Positions 54,594 to 60,924 of a stretch of DNA of 64,000 nt are shown here, one piece after another (positions within the stretch are counted from its first letter, which is position 1; the number at the start of each line of letters is the position of its first letter). The stretch spans positions 13,659 to 77,658 of the forward strand of contig JALNYU010000017.1 of NCBI GenBank assembly GCA_023229645.1, written 5' to 3'. This stretch comes from Nevskia sp. (GTDB taxonomy: Bacteria; Pseudomonadota; Gammaproteobacteria; Nevskiales; Nevskiaceae). Position numbers and translations under genes: made by a program. The notes beneath the pieces are model-generated. The model was not told the origin of the DNA. It did no database searches and saw only the letters and a list, made by a program, of their open reading frames with translations.

Positions 54594-55142
54594 CTAGCGG
54601 GGTGATTTCGGGACGTCGATCCAAACAAAGCCATCGCGGTTTGGCATGCGAATTTTGGGCAGGGTTTCGGCGTTGATGTCGTCGTTTTCGCCGATTACAC
54701 CGCTGAGATTGAGCAAATAGGCGGTGACCGCGTAAACCTCATCGTTGCTGAGCGTACCCGGCGCAGTCATCGGCATTGCGCGGCGGGTGAAGTCGAACAA
54801 GGTTGTCGCAAACGGCCAGTAGTTATCGACGGCGGGGTCTGGCTCGGGGCCGGTTAACGGGCCGTGGCTAATTAACTGCCCACCGCTGCCGCCACGCCCG
54901 GCGCTGCCGTGGCAGGCAGTGCACTGCGCGTCATAGACTTTCCTGCCGTCAACGGCGTTGCCGTGGCCTGCTGGTAGGCCGCGGCCATCGGGATAAATGC
55001 TGGGATAGGGCAGCGCAGCCTCGGTGTTGGGCAGCACTTGGCCGAGATTGGGCCCGGCGATTTTGCCGCCCGCAGCGGCCGCTGGCAGCGCCAGTGTCAT
55101 CAGCAGCAACACGGCGACGTAACGGCTTTCAGGCATAGACAT
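54594..55142 (-). CDS. Monoheme c-type cytochrome (SoxD/SorB-like)
   Basis: Signal peptide, CTACH, NYWPFATTLFDFTRRAMP. Confidence 0.85.
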   Translation of the reverse strand: MSMPESRYVAVLLLMTLALPAAAAGGKIAGPNLGQVLPNTEAALPYPSIYPDGRGLPAGHGNAVDGRKVYDAQCTACHGSAGRGGSGGQLISHGPLTGPEPDPAVDNYWPFATTLFDFTRRAMPMTAPGTLSNDEVYAVTAYLLNLSGVIGENDDINAETLPKIRMPNRDGFVWIDVPKSPR

Positions 55143-56409
55143 GGCTGAGTTCTCCGTCGCTATCGAGCGCCCAGGCGACAATCGCATTGTAGTGAAAATA
55201 GCCGGCGCGGCCGCGCTCGGCGATCAATTTTGTGCGCTCCGGTTGGACGTTGCCAGCCTCATCAGTGGCGCGGCTTTTCAGCACGGCAGCTTGGCCGCGC
55301 CACTGCCACGGTAGGCGGAAGCGCGTGAAACACTGTGGTAGCACCGGCGTTTGTAATTCGGCCTGCGTCCAGGTTTTGCCGCCATTCACCGAGATCTCTA
55401 CTTTTTTGATGCGGCCGTGGCCCGACCACGCGAGGCCGCGCAGTTCGTGCAGACCTCTGCTCAGTACGGCGCCGGGCGAGGGCGTCGTGATCAGCGATTT
55501 CACGCCCATGACAAACGTAAACTGACGCGCTTTACCGTCCGGTTGTAGCTCGGTGTAGCGGCTGGTTTCATTGCGCGCCATCACCGGCTCGCGGCTGAGT
55601 TCGATGCGGCGCAGCCATTTGACGTTCAAAACGCCTTCCCAGCCGGGGACTAGCAAGCGCAGCGGGTAACCATTTTCCGGCCTTAGCCGCTCGCCGTTCT
55701 GGTACAGCGCGAGCAGGCAGTCGTCCGTCGCTTTATGTAGCGGCAGCGAGACGTTCATCGCGATTGCGTCCGCGCCTTCGAGCACCAGCCAGCGCGCCTC
55801 GGGCGCAACACCGGCTTCGTCGAGGATGGTTGATAGCGGCACGCCGGTCCATTCGCTGCACGAGGCCATGCCGTGCAAGTAGCCCGCTTTGGTCTGCAGC
55901 GGTTCCAGGTTCCAGCCGGCGTTGCTATTGCCGCCGCACTCAATGAACGCGAGGCGCGTGCGCAGCGGGTAACGGAGTAAATCGGCGATTGAAAAACTGA
56001 GCGCGCGCTGTGTTAAACCGTGCACCAGCAGGCGGTGCTGGTCGGCCGGAATCTGCGGTACGCCGTTGTGGTGGCGCTCAAAGTGTAAGCCGCTCGGCGT
56101 GATGATGCCTTCCAGTTCGTGCAGCGGCGTCCAAGACACGCCGTTGCCGGGCACTTGCCGGTTCGGCGTGATCCAACGGATGACTTTTCGCTCTTGTTCC
56201 GACGGCTGGCCGTAGTTCGTAAGCGGTGCACCCGGCGTGTGCAGCCACGGCAGCGGCGGTTCCGCAGCGCTGAGTTTGCCGCCGGTGGTGGCCGCCGTTA
56301 GTGCCAGCCCGCCCTGCAAAAAGGCGCGGCGATTCAGCCCGCTCGGGTTGGCACCCGGCGCCACCCCGGTCGGGATCGTCGGCGTTGATATTTTTTTTCG
56401 CCGTGTCAT
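55129..56409 (-). CDS. soxC: Sulfite oxidase-family molybdoenzyme SoxC
   Basis: Tat signal NRRAFLQ; ITPSGLHFERHH, ECGGN, ENGYPLRL. Confidence 0.88.
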   Translation of the reverse strand: MTRRKKISTPTIPTGVAPGANPSGLNRRAFLQGGLALTAATTGGKLSAAEPPLPWLHTPGAPLTNYGQPSEQERKVIRWITPNRQVPGNGVSWTPLHELEGIITPSGLHFERHHNGVPQIPADQHRLLVHGLTQRALSFSIADLLRYPLRTRLAFIECGGNSNAGWNLEPLQTKAGYLHGMASCSEWTGVPLSTILDEAGVAPEARWLVLEGADAIAMNVSLPLHKATDDCLLALYQNGERLRPENGYPLRLLVPGWEGVLNVKWLRRIELSREPVMARNETSRYTELQPDGKARQFTFVMGVKSLITTPSPGAVLSRGLHELRGLAWSGHGRIKKVEISVNGGKTWTQAELQTPVLPQCFTRFRLPWQWRGQAAVLKSRATDEAGNVQPERTKLIAERGRAGYFHYNAIVAWALDSDGELSHVYA

Positions 56410-56454
56410 GGTCTCTCCTCCTACTGACGCCGCCGGTGGTCCGGCGGTCACACG

Positions 56455-58869
56455 CTATACCGCAACCGGCCGCAACGAAAAGAGTCGGTATTGCCCGTAG
56501 CGCTTCGCCAGTTCGATCTCACCGGCGTATTCGGCAACAAATCGCTCGGGCGCTTCGAGTGCGAGGCGCGCCGCGAATGCCTCTGTGACGAAAATCATGC
56601 CGGGCGGCGTCACCGGTTCGATGCGCGCCGCAAACGACAGCTGCGAGCCGAAATACACCGGCGTGTTCTCAACTGGATCGATCCCCGCATAAACCGGTGC
56701 GTAGTGCGCGGCGAGGCGCAATTCCAGCTGCGCCAGCGTGCCGTCGAGCTGCGGCCGCAGCTGTTCGATCGCGGCGTGGATTTCGACCAAGAGATCGGCC
56801 GCCGACTCGGCGTCGGCGGTGACGATATGCACGGCGTCGCCCCAGGTGTGCTGGCGCAGAATTTTCGCCTGCGCGCGCTTGAGGACATCGGCAATCGCCC
56901 CAAAGTGCAGGGTCTGGAAGCGGGGCATTTCGGCCTCGCTCAAGCGGCTGAAGCCGGTGAAGTCGGCGAAGATCGTCCCCACAAATTGCCGCGCGAACGT
57001 CACCGCACTGGTTGGCGCGGGCGGGGTATTCGCGGCGCAGCGGCGGTTCAGCACGGCGTCGGCTTCTTCGTCGCTGAGCAGACGGGCATCGTCGTTTAGG
57101 GCCAATACCTGCCAGCCGCAGCCCAGCCTTTTTGCCGTGAGTTTGGATAAGCCCAGCGCGACGGTTGCGACATAGTCGGCGAGGCGGTGGCTTTCCTCGT
57201 CGAGAAAGCCATTGGCGACTGAAACCTCGTCCGCGCGCTGCAAACACCGGTGCAGGCGCTGCGCGGTGAGGTCGTCATAACGCGTGCGCCAGGCTTCGAG
57301 CAACGTTGCTTTCGGAGCTGACAAAATCAAATGCAGGCGGCTGTCGAATTTGGCGAGTGCTTCGACGACGCCGAGGTCAGCCGGTGCGATGAGGGTGGCA
57401 AATACGAACGCTGCGTGCACGGCCGGCATCACACCAACTTCTGGCGAGCAGCGCAGCGCGCAAACCACCGGCGCCAGTGTCAGGTGATCGAGTAGCGCGG
57501 TATCGATTGCGTGATGCCGGCAGATCAGCCGCAGCTGCGCGGCGGCACGGCTGCGGACGTTGACGTTGCCGCGCAGCAATTGGTTGGCGCGACGCAGGTT
57601 GGCGCCGCAGCCGTCGAGATCTTGCAGTAGCAACAGCGCTTCGGCGGCGGTGACGCAGCGGTAGTAGTCATCCGTTTCATCGGCGGGGAGGGCTGCGCGC
57701 GTTTGCGCCAACGCTGCCTGTGCCAGCGTTGCCGACTGCACCGCCTCGCCGCCGAGCAAGAACATCGTGGCCGCGTTAATCGCCGGGAAATAGCCACCGG
57801 TACGCTGAAATGCCGCGTGATAGGCGGCGCCGGAGCGCAGAAACAGTGCGCGGTCGGCACGGCGGCTCAGCGCAAGGTCTTTCAGCAATCGGCCTTCAAG
57901 CGCCAACCAATCTTCGCCCAGCTCGTGTTCGGCGAGTTGCAGCTGGTAGTAGCGTTGCAGGCCAAGTTGCGTGCTGCCGGCGTTTGCCAGCGCTAGCACC
58001 GAGAGATAGTCCAACGTTCGCGAGGTCACGCCGCTGGCTTTTGCCCTTACCGTTTGGTCGTAGGCTTGCAGGTAATTGCCGGCTTTGAGCGCCTGTCGGC
58101 ACTGCCGGATGTGTTCGACGAGTGCGTCTTCAGCGTCAGCGGCGGTCGGCATGGGCGCCGATGCGGGCGCCGGCATTGCCTGAGGATCGACGATGTGCAG
58201 CGCGCGCCGCGCGTGCCGAGCGGTTCGCAGCGCCAAGGTCGAGAATTCAGCCGGGATTAGCGACGGATTGCGTCGCCATTCAACCACCTCAGCGGTGCCG
58301 CCCGGCAGTTGCGGGCTTTGTCCGCGCAGCACGGCGAGCAGTTGCTCGGGTTGTTCCGCGAGACAGGCGGCGAGGCGGCGGTACTGCGCTTGCCGGAAGC
58401 CCTGATCCGCCAGCTCGGCGTGCGCGTAAGACGGCGGCAGCAGGTCAACCACCGTTTCGCAGGCGGCCAGCGCCGTGCTGATCGCTTTTTGCACGTCATC
58501 AAGCCCGCAGGCGTCTACCGAGACGCCATTTTCGCGTGCTTTGATCAACCAGTCGCTGATCAAGGTATTCACCGGCAACGGCAGCAATGCAACCGCCCGG
58601 TAAGCGATGCCGGCGCGGCGCAACCACGTGGCGCAGACGCGCTGAAAGAGCAAGTCGGCCCCCGGTGCGAGGCAGCTGATCAGCGTAACCGTCAGCCTAT
58701 CGCGCCCGGAAAACAACGCCGGCAGCACAGTTTTTTCGAGCTGCGTCGTAGCCTGAGCTTGTTCTTGCGCCGAAAGCAGCAAATGGCCGGTGCCGCCAAG
58801 CAAAACATGGCCGGAATCTGCGGTGGGCAAGCTGAGCAGCCAATCCGCGAGCTTGAGCTTGCGCAGCAC
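56455..58869 (-). CDS. SLOG - TPR-S (TRAFs-binding-like) - degenerate SLOG - class III nucleotide cyclase
   Basis: GTG at 58869; GGTGH, SCLAPGAD, GGTAEVV (SLOG); EGRLLKD, YFPAINAAT, TAAEALL (TPR-S); ADFTGFS, TWGDA, AARIE (cyclase). Confidence 0.8.
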   Translation of the reverse strand: MLRKLKLADWLLSLPTADSGHVLLGGTGHLLLSAQEQAQATTQLEKTVLPALFSGRDRLTVTLISCLAPGADLLFQRVCATWLRRAGIAYRAVALLPLPVNTLISDWLIKARENGVSVDACGLDDVQKAISTALAACETVVDLLPPSYAHAELADQGFRQAQYRRLAACLAEQPEQLLAVLRGQSPQLPGGTAEVVEWRRNPSLIPAEFSTLALRTARHARRALHIVDPQAMPAPASAPMPTAADAEDALVEHIRQCRQALKAGNYLQAYDQTVRAKASGVTSRTLDYLSVLALANAGSTQLGLQRYYQLQLAEHELGEDWLALEGRLLKDLALSRRADRALFLRSGAAYHAAFQRTGGYFPAINAATMFLLGGEAVQSATLAQAALAQTRAALPADETDDYYRCVTAAEALLLLQDLDGCGANLRRANQLLRGNVNVRSRAAAQLRLICRHHAIDTALLDHLTLAPVVCALRCSPEVGVMPAVHAAFVFATLIAPADLGVVEALAKFDSRLHLILSAPKATLLEAWRTRYDDLTAQRLHRCLQRADEVSVANGFLDEESHRLADYVATVALGLSKLTAKRLGCGWQVLALNDDARLLSDEEADAVLNRRCAANTPPAPTSAVTFARQFVGTIFADFTGFSRLSEAEMPRFQTLHFGAIADVLKRAQAKILRQHTWGDAVHIVTADAESAADLLVEIHAAIEQLRPQLDGTLAQLELRLAAHYAPVYAGIDPVENTPVYFGSQLSFAARIEPVTPPGMIFVTEAFAARLALEAPERFVAEYAGEIELAKRYGQYRLFSLRPVAV

Positions 58870-58874
58870 GGCGG

Positions 58875-59438
58875 CTAACGCTCGGTCTTGCCCGTCGTTG
58901 CGCGTAGAAGAACGTAGACCGCGCCCGTGCCGCCGTCGTGCGGACGGGCAGAACAGAAAGCGAGCACATCCTTGCGCCGGCGCAGCCAACCATCGAGCAA
59001 TGTTTTGATCACGGGGCCGGTATTGGGCGAGCGATTGCCCTTACCGTGGACGATGCGGACGCAGCGCACGTCGTGATCCTGGCAATCAGCGAGAAATTCG
59101 CTGACCGCCGCGTGTGCGGCATTGCGGTTCAGGCCGTGCAGATCAAGATCGGCCCGCACCCGGTACGCGCCGCGGCGTAGCCGGCGCCAGACGCCGTCTT
59201 GAATGCCATCGGCGCGGAAGCTCAGTGTGTCACCGCTTTCGATCAGCTCGGGCTCAAACATGCCGTAGAGCAATTCCTCGACCACCGCGCGTTCATCGGC
59301 CTCGGCGTTGCGCGCGCGCGGCGGCGGCGTCTTCCGCTCCGGCGGCAGGCGATCGGACGACGCCCGCGGCTGAACATCGGCCATCGCATCGCGAAAGCTC
59401 AGGTCGTTTGCCGGATCGGTTTTGGAATTCGACGCCAT
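58875..59438 (-). CDS. Smr/MutS2 domain protein (SmrA-like)
   Basis: LDLHGL, IVHGKG, GGTGAVYVLL. Confidence 0.92.
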   Translation of the reverse strand: MASNSKTDPANDLSFRDAMADVQPRASSDRLPPERKTPPPRARNAEADERAVVEELLYGMFEPELIESGDTLSFRADGIQDGVWRRLRRGAYRVRADLDLHGLNRNAAHAAVSEFLADCQDHDVRCVRIVHGKGNRSPNTGPVIKTLLDGWLRRRKDVLAFCSARPHDGGTGAVYVLLRATTGKTER

Positions 59439-59497
59439 GCGGGCATCATAGCCTGCCAACACGTAAACTAATTTGGATTTTCCAAAAGCACATTCCG

Positions 59498-60244
59498 ATG
59501 CGGATCTTATTGTCGAACGACGACGGTTACACAGCCCCCGGGCTGCTGTGCCTTGCAGAATATTTACGCCGAGAGCACCAGGTTGATGTGGTGGCGCCGG
59601 ATCGCAACCGTAGCGGCGCCAGCAACTCGCTGACGATCGTCAACCCGCTGCGTTTGCAACGGCAGCCGGACGGCACAATCTGTGTTGACGGCACGCCCAC
59701 CGACTGCGTCCATTTGGCGCTAACCGGTCTGATCAAAGAAACGCCGAATATGGTTGTTTCCGGCATCAATAACGGCCCGAATTTGGGCGATGACACGCTC
59801 TATTCCGGCACGGTTGCCGCGGCGATGGAAGGCCGCCATCTTGGCTTTCCGGCGATCGCCGTATCGTGCAATTCGCACGACCCGAAGCACTATGAAACCG
59901 CCGCGCAAGTGACATTGCGGTTGGTCGAGCGGCTGCGCCAAGAGCCGCTACCGGGCGATACGATTTTGAACGTCAACGTGCCGGACGTGCCGTTCGAGGC
60001 CTTGAAAGGCTACGAAGTAACGCGGCTTGGCAATCGCCACCGCTCCGAACCCGTTGCTGAAGCGCTAGACCCGCGCGGCCGGCCGATTTACTGGATCGGT
60101 GTTGCCGGTGCCGAGTCTGACTTCGGGCCGGGCACGGACTTCCATGCGGTTGCCAACCAGCGCGTGTCGATCACGCCGCTGCTGGTCGATCTCACACGTC
60201 ACAGCCTGCTCGACCGGCTCGGTGCCTGGGCTAAGGCACTGTGA
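59498..60244 (+). CDS. surE: 5'/3'-nucleotidase SurE
   Basis: LSNDDG, GTPTDCV, SGINNGPNLG, YSGTV. Confidence 0.96.
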   Translation: MRILLSNDDGYTAPGLLCLAEYLRREHQVDVVAPDRNRSGASNSLTIVNPLRLQRQPDGTICVDGTPTDCVHLALTGLIKETPNMVVSGINNGPNLGDDTLYSGTVAAAMEGRHLGFPAIAVSCNSHDPKHYETAAQVTLRLVERLRQEPLPGDTILNVNVPDVPFEALKGYEVTRLGNRHRSEPVAEALDPRGRPIYWIGVAGAESDFGPGTDFHAVANQRVSITPLLVDLTRHSLLDRLGAWAKAL

Positions 60245-60924
60245 CGGCAGGCGTGCATCCGCACAGCCGCGGTCTCGGTTTAACCTCCCCGGTGAGCCGG
60301 GCGCGGATGATCGACGAACTGCGGCAGCAGGGCGTTTCCGATGAGCGCGTACTGGCGGCGATGCTGAAAATCCCGCGCCACGAGTTCGTTGAAGAAGCCT
60401 GGCGCGGCGAAGCCTACCGCAGCAAATCGCTGCCGATTGGCTTGGCCCAAACGCTATCGCAACCGTATGTCGTCGGCTTGATGACGCAGCTGCTGCTGGA
60501 ACCCTCGGCGGAATGCGCGGCGCGCAAGAACGTGCTCGAAGTTGGTACCGGCAGCGGTTATCAGACGGCGGTGTTGGCGGAAGTGGTGGAGCGGGTATAT
60601 TCGGTCGAGCGTTTGAAGGCTTTGTCCGAAATCGCGCGAAACCGCCTGCAGGGGTTGCGTTACCGCAACGTGCATTTCGGTTACGCCGACGGTACCGCCG
60701 GCTGGGCGGCGCACGCCCCGTACGATGCGATCATCGTCACCGCTGCTGCCAGCGAAGTGCCCAAGGCGCTGCAGGAGCAGTTGGCGCGCGGTGGGCGGTT
60801 GGTGATCCCCGTCGGGCCGCCGAATCAGCAGGTGTTACGGGTAGTGGACCGCGTTGGCGCGCGCTTTCAAAGTCGCGATGTCGCCGCCGTTAGCTTCGTG
60901 CCGCTGCTCGAAGGCAAGGCCTGA
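60241..60924 (+). CDS. pcm: Protein-L-isoaspartate O-methyltransferase
   Basis: QTLSQPY, LEVGTGSGYQ, PYDAIIVTAA. Confidence 0.95.
   Translation: MTAGVHPHSRGLGLTSPVSRARMIDELRQQGVSDERVLAAMLKIPRHEFVEEAWRGEAYRSKSLPIGLAQTLSQPYVVGLMTQLLLEPSAECAARKNVLEVGTGSGYQTAVLAEVVERVYSVERLKALSEIARNRLQGLRYRNVHFGYADGTAGWAAHAPYDAIIVTAAASEVPKALQEQLARGGRLVIPVGPPNQQVLRVVDRVGARFQSRDVAAVSFVPLLEGKA

What the first reader, a model, noticed from the sequence alone, without database searches (positions are those of the whole stretch)
56455..58869. SLOG - TPR-S - SLOG' - class III cyclase with non-canonical base-specificity residues
Seen: an N-terminal SLOG-like domain (GGTGH, SCLAPGAD, GGTAEVV), a TPR-sensor/TRAFs-binding-like helical domain, a second eroded SLOG-like segment, and a cyclase retaining both metal Asp residues (ADF, WGD) and the catalytic Arg (AARIE). 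It has His (HTWGD) at the position that is Lys in adenylate and Glu in guanylate cyclases, and Phe in place of the usual Asn (SFAAR). Knowledge: SLOG and TPR-S domains belong to nucleotide-centred conflict systems, and Pycsar shows class III cyclases can make cCMP/cUMP for immunity. Inference: a single-chain sensor-cyclase making or processing an unusual nucleotide signal. The extra N-terminal SLOG makes the architecture more elaborate, and no cNMP-binding effector gene is adjacent.
Basis: partly seen in the sequence, partly recalled or inferred. Interest (0 to 1): 0.75.

Follow-up and report, generated by a model that had tools for sequence, protein, structure and literature searches.

The report
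TIR-linked SLOG/TPR-S sensor nucleotide cyclase
This gene encodes a four-domain enzyme that probably senses an NAD-derived alarm molecule made by membrane TIR proteins encoded elsewhere in the genome and answers by making a cyclic nucleotide; this two-messenger relay is widespread in bacteria and appears never to have been tested.

Summary
The architecture is real: an 804-aa protein (56455-58869, minus strand) with a YpsA-like SLOG domain, a TPR-S scaffold, a degenerate second SLOG and a class III cyclase. The metal Asp residues (D636, D678) and Arg749 are kept. One detail was wrong: Ser745, not Phe, replaces the catalytic Asn.

The protein is not self-contained. In 151 genomes of the same order, the cyclase and one TIR subfamily co-occur almost perfectly: 40 have both, 2 only the cyclase, 1 only the TIR, 108 neither. 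The two genes are adjacent or near in 17 of 42 carrier genomes. In Actinomycetota, 69 of 80 loci hold a TIR gene within 8 kb and 38 of 80 a cNMP-binding gene.

Here the partners are unlinked: two TIR-TM-TPR genes lie on another contig. This gene is the genome's only class III cyclase hit.

The best reading is a Thoeris-like relay: a TIR-made NAD derivative binds SLOG/TPR-S, the cyclase makes a cNMP, and cNMP-binding proteins read it. This lineage eroded the internal SLOG and keeps a replacement copy, fused or adjacent.

The product, the ligand and any defence role are untested. I class it as a new variant of a known kind.

The parts
56455..58869 (-). Whole gene: 804 aa, GTG start at 58869, stop at 56455-56457
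   Evidence: ORF and translation. Homologue N-termini coincide with this start. It is the only PF00211 hit in the genome.
58174..58869 (-). N-terminal YpsA-like SLOG domain (residues 1-232). It carries the invariant or near-invariant G28-H29, G70-x-D72, D106-W107 and G190-G191-x-x-E194.
   Evidence: AF2 pLDDT 94.9. Foldseek match to 2nx2 YpsA, E 1.6e-5. Weak YAcAr/YpsA Pfam hits in family members. Conservation. In relatives the domain occurs as a separate upstream gene or at the C-terminus.
57478..58107 (-). TPR-S / MAP3K-TRAF-binding-like helical scaffold (about residues 255-464; the Pfam core is 275-369)
   Evidence: PF20308 E 1.6e-8; PF13281 weak. The family profile hits ASK1 5ulm and 8qgy.
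57031..57477 (-). Degenerate second SLOG-like Rossmannoid domain (about residues 465-613). It lacks the GH, GxD and GGT motifs.
   Evidence: AF2 pLDDT 90.2 with alternating strands and helices. hhalign to the N-terminal SLOG: 93.6%; intact orthologous domains: 89% over 146 columns. Motif comparison. Foldseek found no significant match.
56458..56991 (-). Class III nucleotidyl cyclase domain (residues 627-804)
   Evidence: PF00211. phmmer and profile hits to PDB cyclases.
56962..56964 (-). Codon of D636, first metal-binding Asp (FADF)
   Evidence: Aligned to the metal Asp of 3et6 and 1y10. Asp in 67/67 full-length and 53/54 short homologues.
56836..56850 (-). H674-T-W-G-D678: His at the Lys(AC)/Glu(GC) position, followed by the second metal Asp
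   Evidence: D678 is Asp in 67/67 full-length homologues. The H674 position is His in about half of the family and otherwise Arg, Ala or Asn.
56623..56658 (-). V738 at the Asp/Cys specificity position, S745 at the catalytic Asn position, and R749, the transition-state Arg
   Evidence: Ser in 62/67 and 50/54; Arg in 67/67 and 52/54.
58875..59462 (-). Upstream Smr-domain gene. Its stop lies 5 nt before the cyclase start. This synteny is conserved in the genus.
   Evidence: Pfam Smr E 1.2e-26. Synteny in L002, L011-L017, L019 and L120.
55129..56451 (-). Downstream SorA-like molybdopterin oxidoreductase gene (followed by cytochrome c at 54594-55187). Its start lies 3 nt after the cyclase stop.
   Evidence: Pfam Oxidored_molyb and Mo-co_dimer. 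The same order is seen in L002.

Best explanation
The gene encodes the receiver and output enzyme of a two-part, Thoeris-like signalling system whose signal-making half is encoded elsewhere in this genome.

Step 1 (inferred). Two tandem single-pass membrane proteins, with a cytoplasmic TIR domain, one TM helix and TPR repeats outside, lie at contig C7:257466-262276. They respond to a cue and turn NAD+ into an ADP-ribose-derived messenger.

Step 2 (inferred by analogy). The messenger is bound by the N-terminal YpsA-like SLOG domain and/or the TPR-S scaffold of this protein. The analogy is the ThsA SLOG domain, which binds 3'cADPR, and ThsI, which carries a TPR domain and is activated by cADPR.

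Step 3 (the anatomy is shown, the activity is inferred). Ligand binding brings the C-terminal class III cyclase domains into an active dimer. D636, D678 and R749 are intact, Ser745 replaces the usual Asn, and His674/Val738 occupy the base-specifying positions. The dimer makes a 3',5'-cyclic nucleotide of unknown base.

Step 4 (inferred). The cNMP is read by cNMP-binding proteins. There are eight candidates in this genome, and Crp-type regulators are encoded next door in many relatives.

The internal SLOG of the ancestral TPR-S-SLOG-cyclase has decayed in this lineage. A second, intact SLOG has been kept since then: fused at the N-terminus (as here), fused at the C-terminus, or encoded as an adjacent gene.
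For: Anatomy.

Partner link in the same order (151 genomes):
- The cyclase is present in 42 genomes.
- A TIR subfamily 45-63% identical to this genome's TIR-TPR proteins is present in 41.
- The overlap is 40 with both, 2 with only the cyclase, 1 with only the TIR and 108 with neither. Fisher p = 5.8e-33.
- Presence and absence are mixed within several genera.
- The TIR gene lies within 300 bp of the cyclase gene in 14 of the 42 carrier genomes, mostly divergently transcribed, and within 1.6 kb in 3 more.

Partner link in Actinomycetota:
- 69 of 80 loci of the intact short form hold a TIR ORF, mostly about 950-1050 aa, within 8 kb and mostly abutting the cyclase.
- One homologue carries a fused C-terminal TIR (P0235).

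This genome's TIR proteins:
- Their TIR domains are 47-58% identical to those encoded next to the cyclase in other genera.
- They keep the WxxEE Glu (sequence).
- They have one strong hydrophobic segment directly after the TIR domain.
- No effector-like gene lies beside them.

Output:
- cNMP-binding ORFs occur in 38 of 80 Actinomycetota flanks. These include a Crp-like regulator and an ABC-ATPase with a cNMP-binding domain.
- One homologue is fused to a cNMP-binding domain (P0240).

Precedents in the literature:
- The type VIII Thoeris effector ThsI carries the TPR domain that Aravind and colleagues predicted to take part in TIR signalling, and it is activated by cADPR (10.64898/2025.12.03.692087).
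- The YpsA-like SLOG clade includes cADPR sensors (PMC9503650).
- GxD/E is the substrate-binding signature of the YpsA clade (PMC6459960). Here G70-A-D72 is invariant or nearly so.
Against: - Nothing has been tested biochemically.
- In this genome the TIR genes are on another contig, so the link rests on co-occurrence. Co-occurrence among related genomes is not fully independent.
- The direction of signal flow is inferred only from domain types.
- The catalytic Asn is replaced by Ser and the specificity residues are non-canonical, so activity could be low or the substrate unexpected.
- The gene sits in a stable, housekeeping-looking smr-X-sorAB arrangement. The flanks of relatives show no enrichment of defence genes, so a defence role is not established.
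- There are no PADLOC or NCBIfam hits.
Confidence: 0.6

Rival explanations
1. This is a physiological sensor cyclase that works independently of TIR proteins in this genome. SLOG/TPR-S bind an endogenous metabolite, such as NAD+, ADP-ribose or another nucleotide. The protein then supplies the cell's cAMP or cGMP for Crp-family regulation, perhaps tied to the smr-sorAB operon in which it is embedded.
For: - It is the only class III cyclase hit in a genome with eight cNMP-binding proteins.
- It is tightly packed between smr and sorA, and this synteny is conserved in the genus.
- Crp-type regulators, not killing effectors, are the recurring third gene in relatives.
- Flanking genes are ordinary and varied.
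Against: - The co-occurrence with one TIR subfamily is near-perfect even where the genes are unlinked, including 16 of 17 genomes of this genus.
- Adjacency to TIR genes holds across two phyla.
- Presence and absence are patchy within genera, which is not typical of a core regulator.
Confidence: 0.15
2. The signal flows the other way, as in Pycsar or Pucsar. The SLOG/TPR-S cyclase would be the sensor that makes a cNMP, and the TIR-TM-repeat protein would be the NAD-degrading effector that the cNMP switches on.
For: There is published precedent for cyclase-made cGMP, cCMP or cUMP activating TIR effectors (10.64898/2026.08.12.744502). The two genes are co-inherited.
Against: - The TIR partners gave no cNMP-binding domain hit in Pfam. 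Pycsar/Pucsar TIR effectors do have one.
- SLOG and TPR-S are receiver-type domains for NAD-derived ligands.
- The cyclase gives no PADLOC hit, so no Pycsar model matches it.
- Separate cNMP-binding proteins recur next to the pair.
Confidence: 0.1
3. The N-terminal SLOG is an enzyme rather than a sensor. It could cleave an N-glycosidic bond as LOG does, or degrade the ADPR-derived signal. It would then generate or terminate a signal, with the cyclase acting as a secondary or regulatory module.
For: - Some SLOG clades are N-glycosidases, and viral YpsA-like SLOGs are proposed to degrade cADPR (PMC9503650).
- The polar residues H29, D72, D106 and E194 are strictly conserved.
Against: - The closest structure is YpsA, and the YpsA-like clade includes known cADPR sensors rather than LOG-type enzymes.
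- The PGGTAE motif differs from the LOG catalytic motif PGGxGTxxE (my own knowledge of the LOG family).
- The cyclase catalytic core is as strictly conserved as the SLOG.
Confidence: 0.08
4. The cyclase domain is catalytically dead, because Asn is replaced by Ser and the substrate pair is non-canonical. The protein would then act as a nucleotide-binding scaffold or a dominant regulator.
For: - Ser745 replaces the Asn that positions the ribose.
- Inactive cyclase domains are known in conflict systems (PMC7159879).
Against: - Both metal Asp residues and the Arg are invariant in the full-length homologues and conserved in 51-53 of 54 short ones.
- The Ser is itself conserved (62/67 and 50/54), which suggests a working variant site.
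- cNMP-binding proteins are recurrent neighbours.
Confidence: 0.05

Closest known systems
Type VIII Thoeris (ThsB TIR + ThsI effector; bioRxiv 10.64898/2025.12.03.692087)
   Same: A TIR partner is paired with an effector that carries the TPR scaffold of the TPR-S / ASK1 type. That scaffold was predicted to perceive a TIR-made NAD derivative, and ThsI is activated by canonical cADPR.
   Different: The output domain is a class III cyclase rather than a CMP-hydrolase-like domain. One or two SLOG domains are added. The TIR partner is a single-pass membrane protein with TPR or WD40 repeats. Here the two halves are unlinked. No phage phenotype is known.
Type I Thoeris effector ThsA (SIR2-SLOG)
   Same: A SLOG domain serves as the receiver of a TIR-made cyclic ADPR isomer and controls a fused enzyme through oligomerisation.
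   Different: The output here is a second messenger (a cNMP), not NAD+ depletion. TPR-S is present. PADLOC Thoeris models do not match the cyclase.
Pycsar / Pucsar (PycC or PucC cyclase + effector with a cNMP-binding domain)
   Same: A class III-type cyclase acts in a conflict-type context, and in relatives its product appears to be read by proteins with cNMP-binding domains.
   Different: PycC and PucC are mostly standalone cyclases with no SLOG or TPR-S. Their effectors are proteins in which a cNMP-binding domain is fused to TIR or TM domains and encoded next door. Here the TIR protein gave no cNMP-binding domain hit and is more likely upstream. PADLOC gives no hit.
Animal ASK1 (MAP3K5) N-terminal region
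   Same: It has a homologous TPR scaffold (PF13281/PF20308; 5ulm hit) preceded by a Rossmannoid nucleotide-type domain. In animals it acts downstream of the TIR protein SARM1/TIR-1 (literature titles).
   Different: Its output is a protein kinase, not a cyclase. It is eukaryotic. Ligand sensing by the ASK1 TPR is itself unproven.
YpsA (B. subtilis SLOG protein, PDB 2nx2)
   Same: The fold of the N-terminal domain matches, and so does the GxD/E-type motif.
   Different: YpsA is a standalone regulator of cell division. Sequence identity is only about 10%, and no Pfam YpsA or YAcAr hit reaches threshold.

Membership tests
Class III nucleotidyl cyclase (PF00211) | Profile match above the curated threshold | tested here: met
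   25.3 bits against a cut-off of 21.9. The family profile against PDB cyclases reaches E 1.4e-14.
Class III nucleotidyl cyclase (PF00211) | Two metal-binding Asp residues and the transition-state Arg | tested here: met
   D636, D678 and R749 align to the corresponding residues of 3et6 and 1y10 and are conserved in 67/67 full-length homologues.
Class III nucleotidyl cyclase (PF00211) | Transition-state Asn, and a canonical Lys/Asp (AC) or Glu/Cys (GC) specificity pair | tested here: not met
   Ser745 stands for the Asn. His674 and Val738 occupy the specificity positions.
Class III nucleotidyl cyclase (PF00211) | Cyclase activity and identity of the product | not testable with these tools
   This needs an enzyme assay with LC-MS.
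SLOG superfamily, YpsA-like clade | Rossmannoid fold that superposes on a known SLOG structure | tested here: met
   The N-terminal model (pLDDT 94.9) matches YpsA 2nx2 at E 1.6e-5, probability 1.0. This is the only significant PDB hit.
SLOG superfamily, YpsA-like clade | A sequence-profile match to a SLOG Pfam family at threshold | tested here: not met
   The query gives no hit. Only 6 of 32 relatives give weak YAcAr hits (best E 0.01) and one a weak YpsA hit.
SLOG superfamily, YpsA-like clade | The GxD/E substrate-binding signature and Gly-rich loops | tested here: met
   G70-A-D72, G25/G28-H29 and G190-G191-T-A-E194 are invariant or nearly so. The motif definition comes from PMC6459960. Residue-by-residue structural equivalence was not checked.
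SLOG superfamily (second, middle copy) | Homology to a bona fide SLOG domain | tested here: inconclusive
   hhalign to the N-terminal SLOG gives 93.6% and 89%, and the motifs are shared in intact orthologues. Foldseek of the middle-domain model gave no significant hit.
TPR-S (PF20308) | Profile match above the curated threshold | tested here: met
   35.4 bits against a cut-off of 27.6. ASK1 TPR structures are hit by the family profile.
Thoeris-type TIR signalling system | A TIR-domain signal producer genetically coupled to the effector | tested here: met
   The genes are adjacent or near in 17 of 42 genomes of the order and within 8 kb in 69 of 80 Actinomycetota loci. Co-occurrence is 40/2/1/108. 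In this genome the two are unlinked: the TIR genes are on contig C7.
Thoeris-type TIR signalling system | The effector carries a domain known to bind TIR-made ADPR derivatives | tested here: met
   A YpsA-like SLOG and TPR-S are present by homology. Ligand binding itself was not tested.
Thoeris-type TIR signalling system | A match to known Thoeris effector models, or location in a defence island | tested here: not met
   The cyclase gives no PADLOC hit. The window context is housekeeping. The flanks of relatives are varied. Only the Hydrocarboniphaga copy lies next to a Wadjet-like system.
Thoeris-type TIR signalling system | Anti-phage protection that depends on TIR and effector | not testable with these tools
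   This needs phage challenge experiments.
Pycsar | A PycC-type cyclase encoded next to an effector with a cNMP-binding domain | tested here: not met
   There is no PADLOC Pycsar hit and no adjacent cNMP-binding gene in the window. No PycC structure appeared among the listed PDB hits of the profile.

The most novel reading that the evidence does not exclude
This may be a bacterial outside-in pathway with Toll-like-receptor geometry and two chained second messengers.

1. Membrane receptors (repeats outside, one TM helix, an enzymatic TIR domain inside) turn an extracytoplasmic cue into an NAD-derived messenger.
2. A SLOG/TPR-S-gated cyclase converts that messenger into a cyclic nucleotide.
3. 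Crp-type regulators read the cyclic nucleotide.

In this genome the pathway would work entirely in trans from unlinked loci. It would use a pair made of one live SLOG and one dead SLOG, forming a single-site pseudo-dimeric sensor.
Probability: 0.35. Interest if true: 0.85.

Novelty: new variant of a known kind. Interest (0 to 1): 0.65.

Why it matters
If the relay is real, TIR-derived NAD messengers in bacteria do more than trigger cell-killing effectors. They can be converted into a classical cyclic-nucleotide signal that feeds transcription factors. This would join two major second-messenger systems.

It would also give a prokaryotic counterpart to the animal SARM1-ASK1 axis, because the same TPR scaffold sits downstream of a TIR protein in both.

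This particular locus adds two practical points:
- The partners stay co-inherited even when unlinked, so neighbourhood-based surveys of defence systems would miss them.
- The lineage offers a natural experiment. The internal SLOG decayed and a replacement SLOG is present as a fused or a separate gene. This could show which domain actually binds the ligand.

Tried and rejected
- NCBIfam and PADLOC scans of the protein gave no hits.
- Sequence-profile searches of the N-terminal domain and of the intact middle domains against PDB found nothing meaningful. Only the fold search identified YpsA.
- The Foldseek search of the middle-domain model gave no significant match. Its SLOG identity therefore rests on profile-profile homology.
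- The broad alignment A4 was too diverse for the search for related loci. I replaced it with A5.
- All-against-all clustering of flank ORFs was noisy, because shadow ORFs in high-GC DNA cluster with real genes. I used it only to pick candidate third genes, which I then checked with Pfam.
- Pycsar membership was considered and rejected.
- The DUF1883-TIR integron cassette about 5 kb away was considered as the partner and set aside. Its TIR domain belongs to a different subfamily: it is only 26-38% identical to the cyclase-associated TIRs, against 47-58% for the C7 genes. It also looks truncated.
- The exclusivity between a fused extra SLOG and an intact internal SLOG (84/0 against 0/71) is not independent evidence. 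The tree shows a single origin.
- Burroughs & Aravind 2020 (J Bacteriol e00365-20), which defined the TPR scaffold, is not held in the library. What I say about it comes from the citing preprint and from memory.
Full report
**Observation**

The ORF lies on the minus strand at 56455-58869 (804 aa). The longer TTG-initiated frame overlaps the upstream Smr gene. The GTG at 58869 sits 5 nt after that gene's TAG, and homologues start at the same residue. Pfam places TPR-S (PF20308, E 1.6e-8) at residues 275-369 and Guanylate_cyc (PF00211, 25.3 bits against a cut-off of 21.9) at residues 630-788, with a weak MAP3K_TRAF_bd match. NCBIfam and PADLOC give nothing.

**Cyclase residues**

phmmer alignments to sGC-beta (3et6) and Rv1264 (1y10) give these assignments:
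- D636 (FADF) and D678 (WGD) are the metal ligands.
- R749 (AARIE) is the transition-state Arg.
- His674 sits at the Lys/Glu position.
- Val738 sits at the Asp/Cys position.
- Ser745, not Phe746, aligns with the catalytic Asn.

Across 121 homologues (67 full-length, 54 short), the two Asp residues and the Arg are invariant in the full-length set and conserved in 51-53 of the short set. Ser745 is conserved (62/67 and 50/54). His is the commonest residue at position 674 but not the only one. A family profile hits many class III cyclase structures (best E 1.4e-14) and the ASK1 TPR region (5ulm, E 3.2e-4).

**N-terminal domain**

No Pfam SLOG model reaches threshold, and a profile search against PDB sequences found nothing. 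An AlphaFold2 model built on a 32-sequence alignment is confident (pLDDT 94.9). Its single significant Foldseek match in PDB is B. subtilis YpsA, 2nx2, a founding SLOG protein (E 1.6e-5, probability 1.00). Six of 32 relatives give weak YAcAr hits. G28-H29, G70-x-D72, D106-W107 and G190-G191-x-x-E194 are invariant or nearly so. GxD/E is the substrate-binding signature of the YpsA clade (PMC6459960), and the YpsA-like clade includes cADPR-sensing members (PMC9503650).

**Middle domain**

Residues about 465-613 form a confident alternating strand-helix model (pLDDT 90.2), but Foldseek found no significant PDB match. In distant short homologues the same region carries the motifs CGH, GSLAxGADIL, LHVVLPF and QLAVWDG..GT..D. 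These mirror the N-terminal domain's GTGH, GLAPGADLLF, LLPVP and PGGTAEVVxW. hhalign links the N-terminal alignment to the middle-domain alignment (93.6%, E 2e-7). It also links it to the intact middle domains over 146 columns, with those motifs in register (89%, E 2.3e-6). In this protein the GH, GxD and GGT motifs are gone.

**The core family and the extra SLOG**

- A HMMER search of 1.84 billion representatives finds 524 proteins at E<=1e-30. Most are forms of about 590 aa with TPR-S, SLOG and cyclase and no N-terminal extension.
- All 84 proteins with a fused extra SLOG (82 at the N-terminus, 2 at the C-terminus) have an eroded internal SLOG.
- All 71 proteins with an intact internal SLOG lack the extra one.
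- A tree of the core region puts every extra-SLOG form in one clade (support 100). Erosion plus acquisition therefore happened once, followed by at least six switches between fused and split states.
- The split state is real. A 236-aa gene 54% identical to the N-terminal domain lies 4 nt upstream of a 589-aa core at the same smr locus in a Nevskia MAG. A 253-aa gene lies upstream of another core.
- Separate SLOG ORFs precede the core gene in several genomes of the order.
- There are 56 clusters of standalone homologues.
- P0133, P0137 and P0150 carry the domain after the cyclase.

**Context in the window**

The neighbours are Smr, a SorA-like molybdoenzyme, cytochrome c, surE, pcm, a VTT protein, an NlpD-like protein, dnaB, alr and panE. 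This is a housekeeping setting, and it is syntenic in the closest relatives. The gene is the only PF00211 hit in the 4.26-Mb genome, which has eight cNMP-binding-domain hits on other contigs.

**The TIR partner**

- The Hydrocarboniphaga homologue lies next to a 989-aa TIR-WD40 gene and a Wadjet-like JetC cluster.
- A Solirubrobacterales homologue lies next to two TIR-WD40 genes.
- In 151 genomes of the same order, 42 carry the cyclase.
- In 14 of those 42, a TIR domain starts within 300 bp of the cyclase gene, mostly divergently. In 3 more it lies within 1.6 kb.
- In 80 Actinomycetota loci of the intact short form (470 loci were found in the species-level genome collection), 69 have a TIR ORF, mostly about 950-1050 aa, within 8 kb and usually abutting the cyclase.
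- This genome has two tandem TIR proteins of 731 and 719 aa at C7:257466-262276. They have N-terminal TIR_2/ThsB_TIR domains, and the 731-aa copy also gives TPR Pfam hits. They lie between tag and glcD-like genes, with no effector beside them.
- Their TIR domains are 47-58% identical to the TIRs encoded next to the cyclase in other genera.
- Searching that TIR domain across the same 151 genomes gives 41 carriers. The overlap with the cyclase is 40 with both, 2 with only the cyclase, 1 with only the TIR and 108 with neither (Fisher p 5.8e-33). Presence and absence are mixed within several genera.
- Each partner protein has one strongly hydrophobic 19-residue segment directly after the TIR domain. 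This implies a cytoplasmic TIR, one TM helix and external repeats.

**Output**

The only recurrent third genes in the Actinomycetota loci encode cNMP-binding domains. One is a 257-aa Crp-type regulator immediately downstream of the cyclase (20 loci). Another is an ABC-ATPase with a cNMP-binding domain (18 loci). In all, 38 of 80 loci carry such an ORF. Apart from these, 109 flanking ORFs fall into 120 different Pfam families with no sign of a defence island. Fusions point the same way: P0240 joins a DNA-binding regulator (Trans_reg_C + BTAD) and a cNMP-binding domain to the core, and P0235 adds a C-terminal TIR.

**Interpretation**

The most economical reading is a Thoeris-like relay: TIR-TM-repeat receptor, then an NAD-derived messenger, then SLOG/TPR-S, then the cyclase, then a cNMP, then cNMP-binding proteins. 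The precedents are ThsA, whose SLOG binds 3'cADPR, and the type VIII effector ThsI, whose TPR domain of this kind is thought to perceive cADPR (10.64898/2025.12.03.692087).

Shown here: the domain anatomy, residue conservation, gene linkage, co-occurrence and the fission/fusion history.

Inferred: TIR activity, ligand identity, which domain binds the ligand, the cyclase product and the biological role.

Defence is possible, but the stable chromosomal contexts and the Crp-type readers fit regulatory signalling at least as well.

**Literature and earlier notes**

Searches of the held library found no paper describing a TIR plus TPR-S-SLOG-cyclase system. The Pucsar preprint describes cNMP cyclases in 'less-understood predicted immune systems' without detail on this architecture. 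The paper that defined the TPR scaffold could not be read.

Earlier AI notes of this scan report the same family next to TIR genes in at least 13 other genomes, with the same reading. I treated them as leads. I re-tested the membrane anchoring, the Asn-to-Ser change and the cNMP-binding neighbours here. They are not independent evidence.

**What is specific to this locus**

- The receiver is unlinked from its TIR partners, yet the two are co-inherited.
- The internal SLOG has decayed and a new copy is fused at the N-terminus.
- The gene is wedged into an smr-sorAB gene string.
- It is the genome's only class III cyclase hit.

**Verdict**

I class it as a new variant of a known kind (TIR/Thoeris-type signalling with a cyclase output). 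Interest is moderate to high.

Noticed in passing
Just beyond the window end: L010 668-1315 (+) = G000:C10:77667-78314, about window position 64009-64656: A 215-aa DUF1883-TIR protein lies in the integron cassette array that starts near the nlpD locus. The TIR_2 match covers only profile positions 1-73 of 122, so the TIR looks truncated. PADLOC matches PDC-S66 and ThsB models. The next cassette ORF carries DUF4145.
   Followed up: partly
G000 contig C7:257466-262276 (L009 7467-9665 and 10115-12277, minus strand): Two tandem paralogous TIR-TM-repeat membrane proteins of 731 and 719 aa (the first gives TPR Pfam hits) lie between a 3-methyladenine glycosylase gene and a GlcD-like FAD oxidase gene. 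No effector gene is adjacent. They are the candidate trans-encoded partners of the cyclase.
   Followed up: yes
L003 8550-14487 (Hydrocarboniphaga contig): Four genes of 458, 246, 927 and 396 aa lie directly downstream of the homologous cyclase. Their sizes resemble JetABCD. Only the 927-aa protein matches PADLOC JetC models (E 1e-22), so this may be a divergent Wadjet-like system.
   Followed up: partly
P0240 and P0235 (homologues from the representative library): P0240 fuses Trans_reg_C, BTAD and a cNMP-binding domain in front of the TPR-S-SLOG-cyclase core. P0235 adds a C-terminal TIR_2 domain. In each, one polypeptide combines two tiers of the proposed relay.
   Followed up: partly
window 60241-60924 (+): The pcm gene (protein-L-isoaspartate O-methyltransferase) matches the PADLOC model mad2 (E 2.6e-16). 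This is almost certainly a generic methyltransferase-fold cross-hit, not a defence gene.
   Followed up: no
window 54594-59462 (-): smr, the cyclase, sorA and the cytochrome c gene lie on one strand. The first two gaps are 5 nt and 3 nt, and sorA overlaps the cytochrome c gene (as listed by the ORF listing, from the first possible start codon). This suggests co-transcription of functionally unrelated genes. In a Nevskia MAG the same slot holds a split SLOG gene plus the core gene, with ispD downstream instead of sorA.
   Followed up: partly
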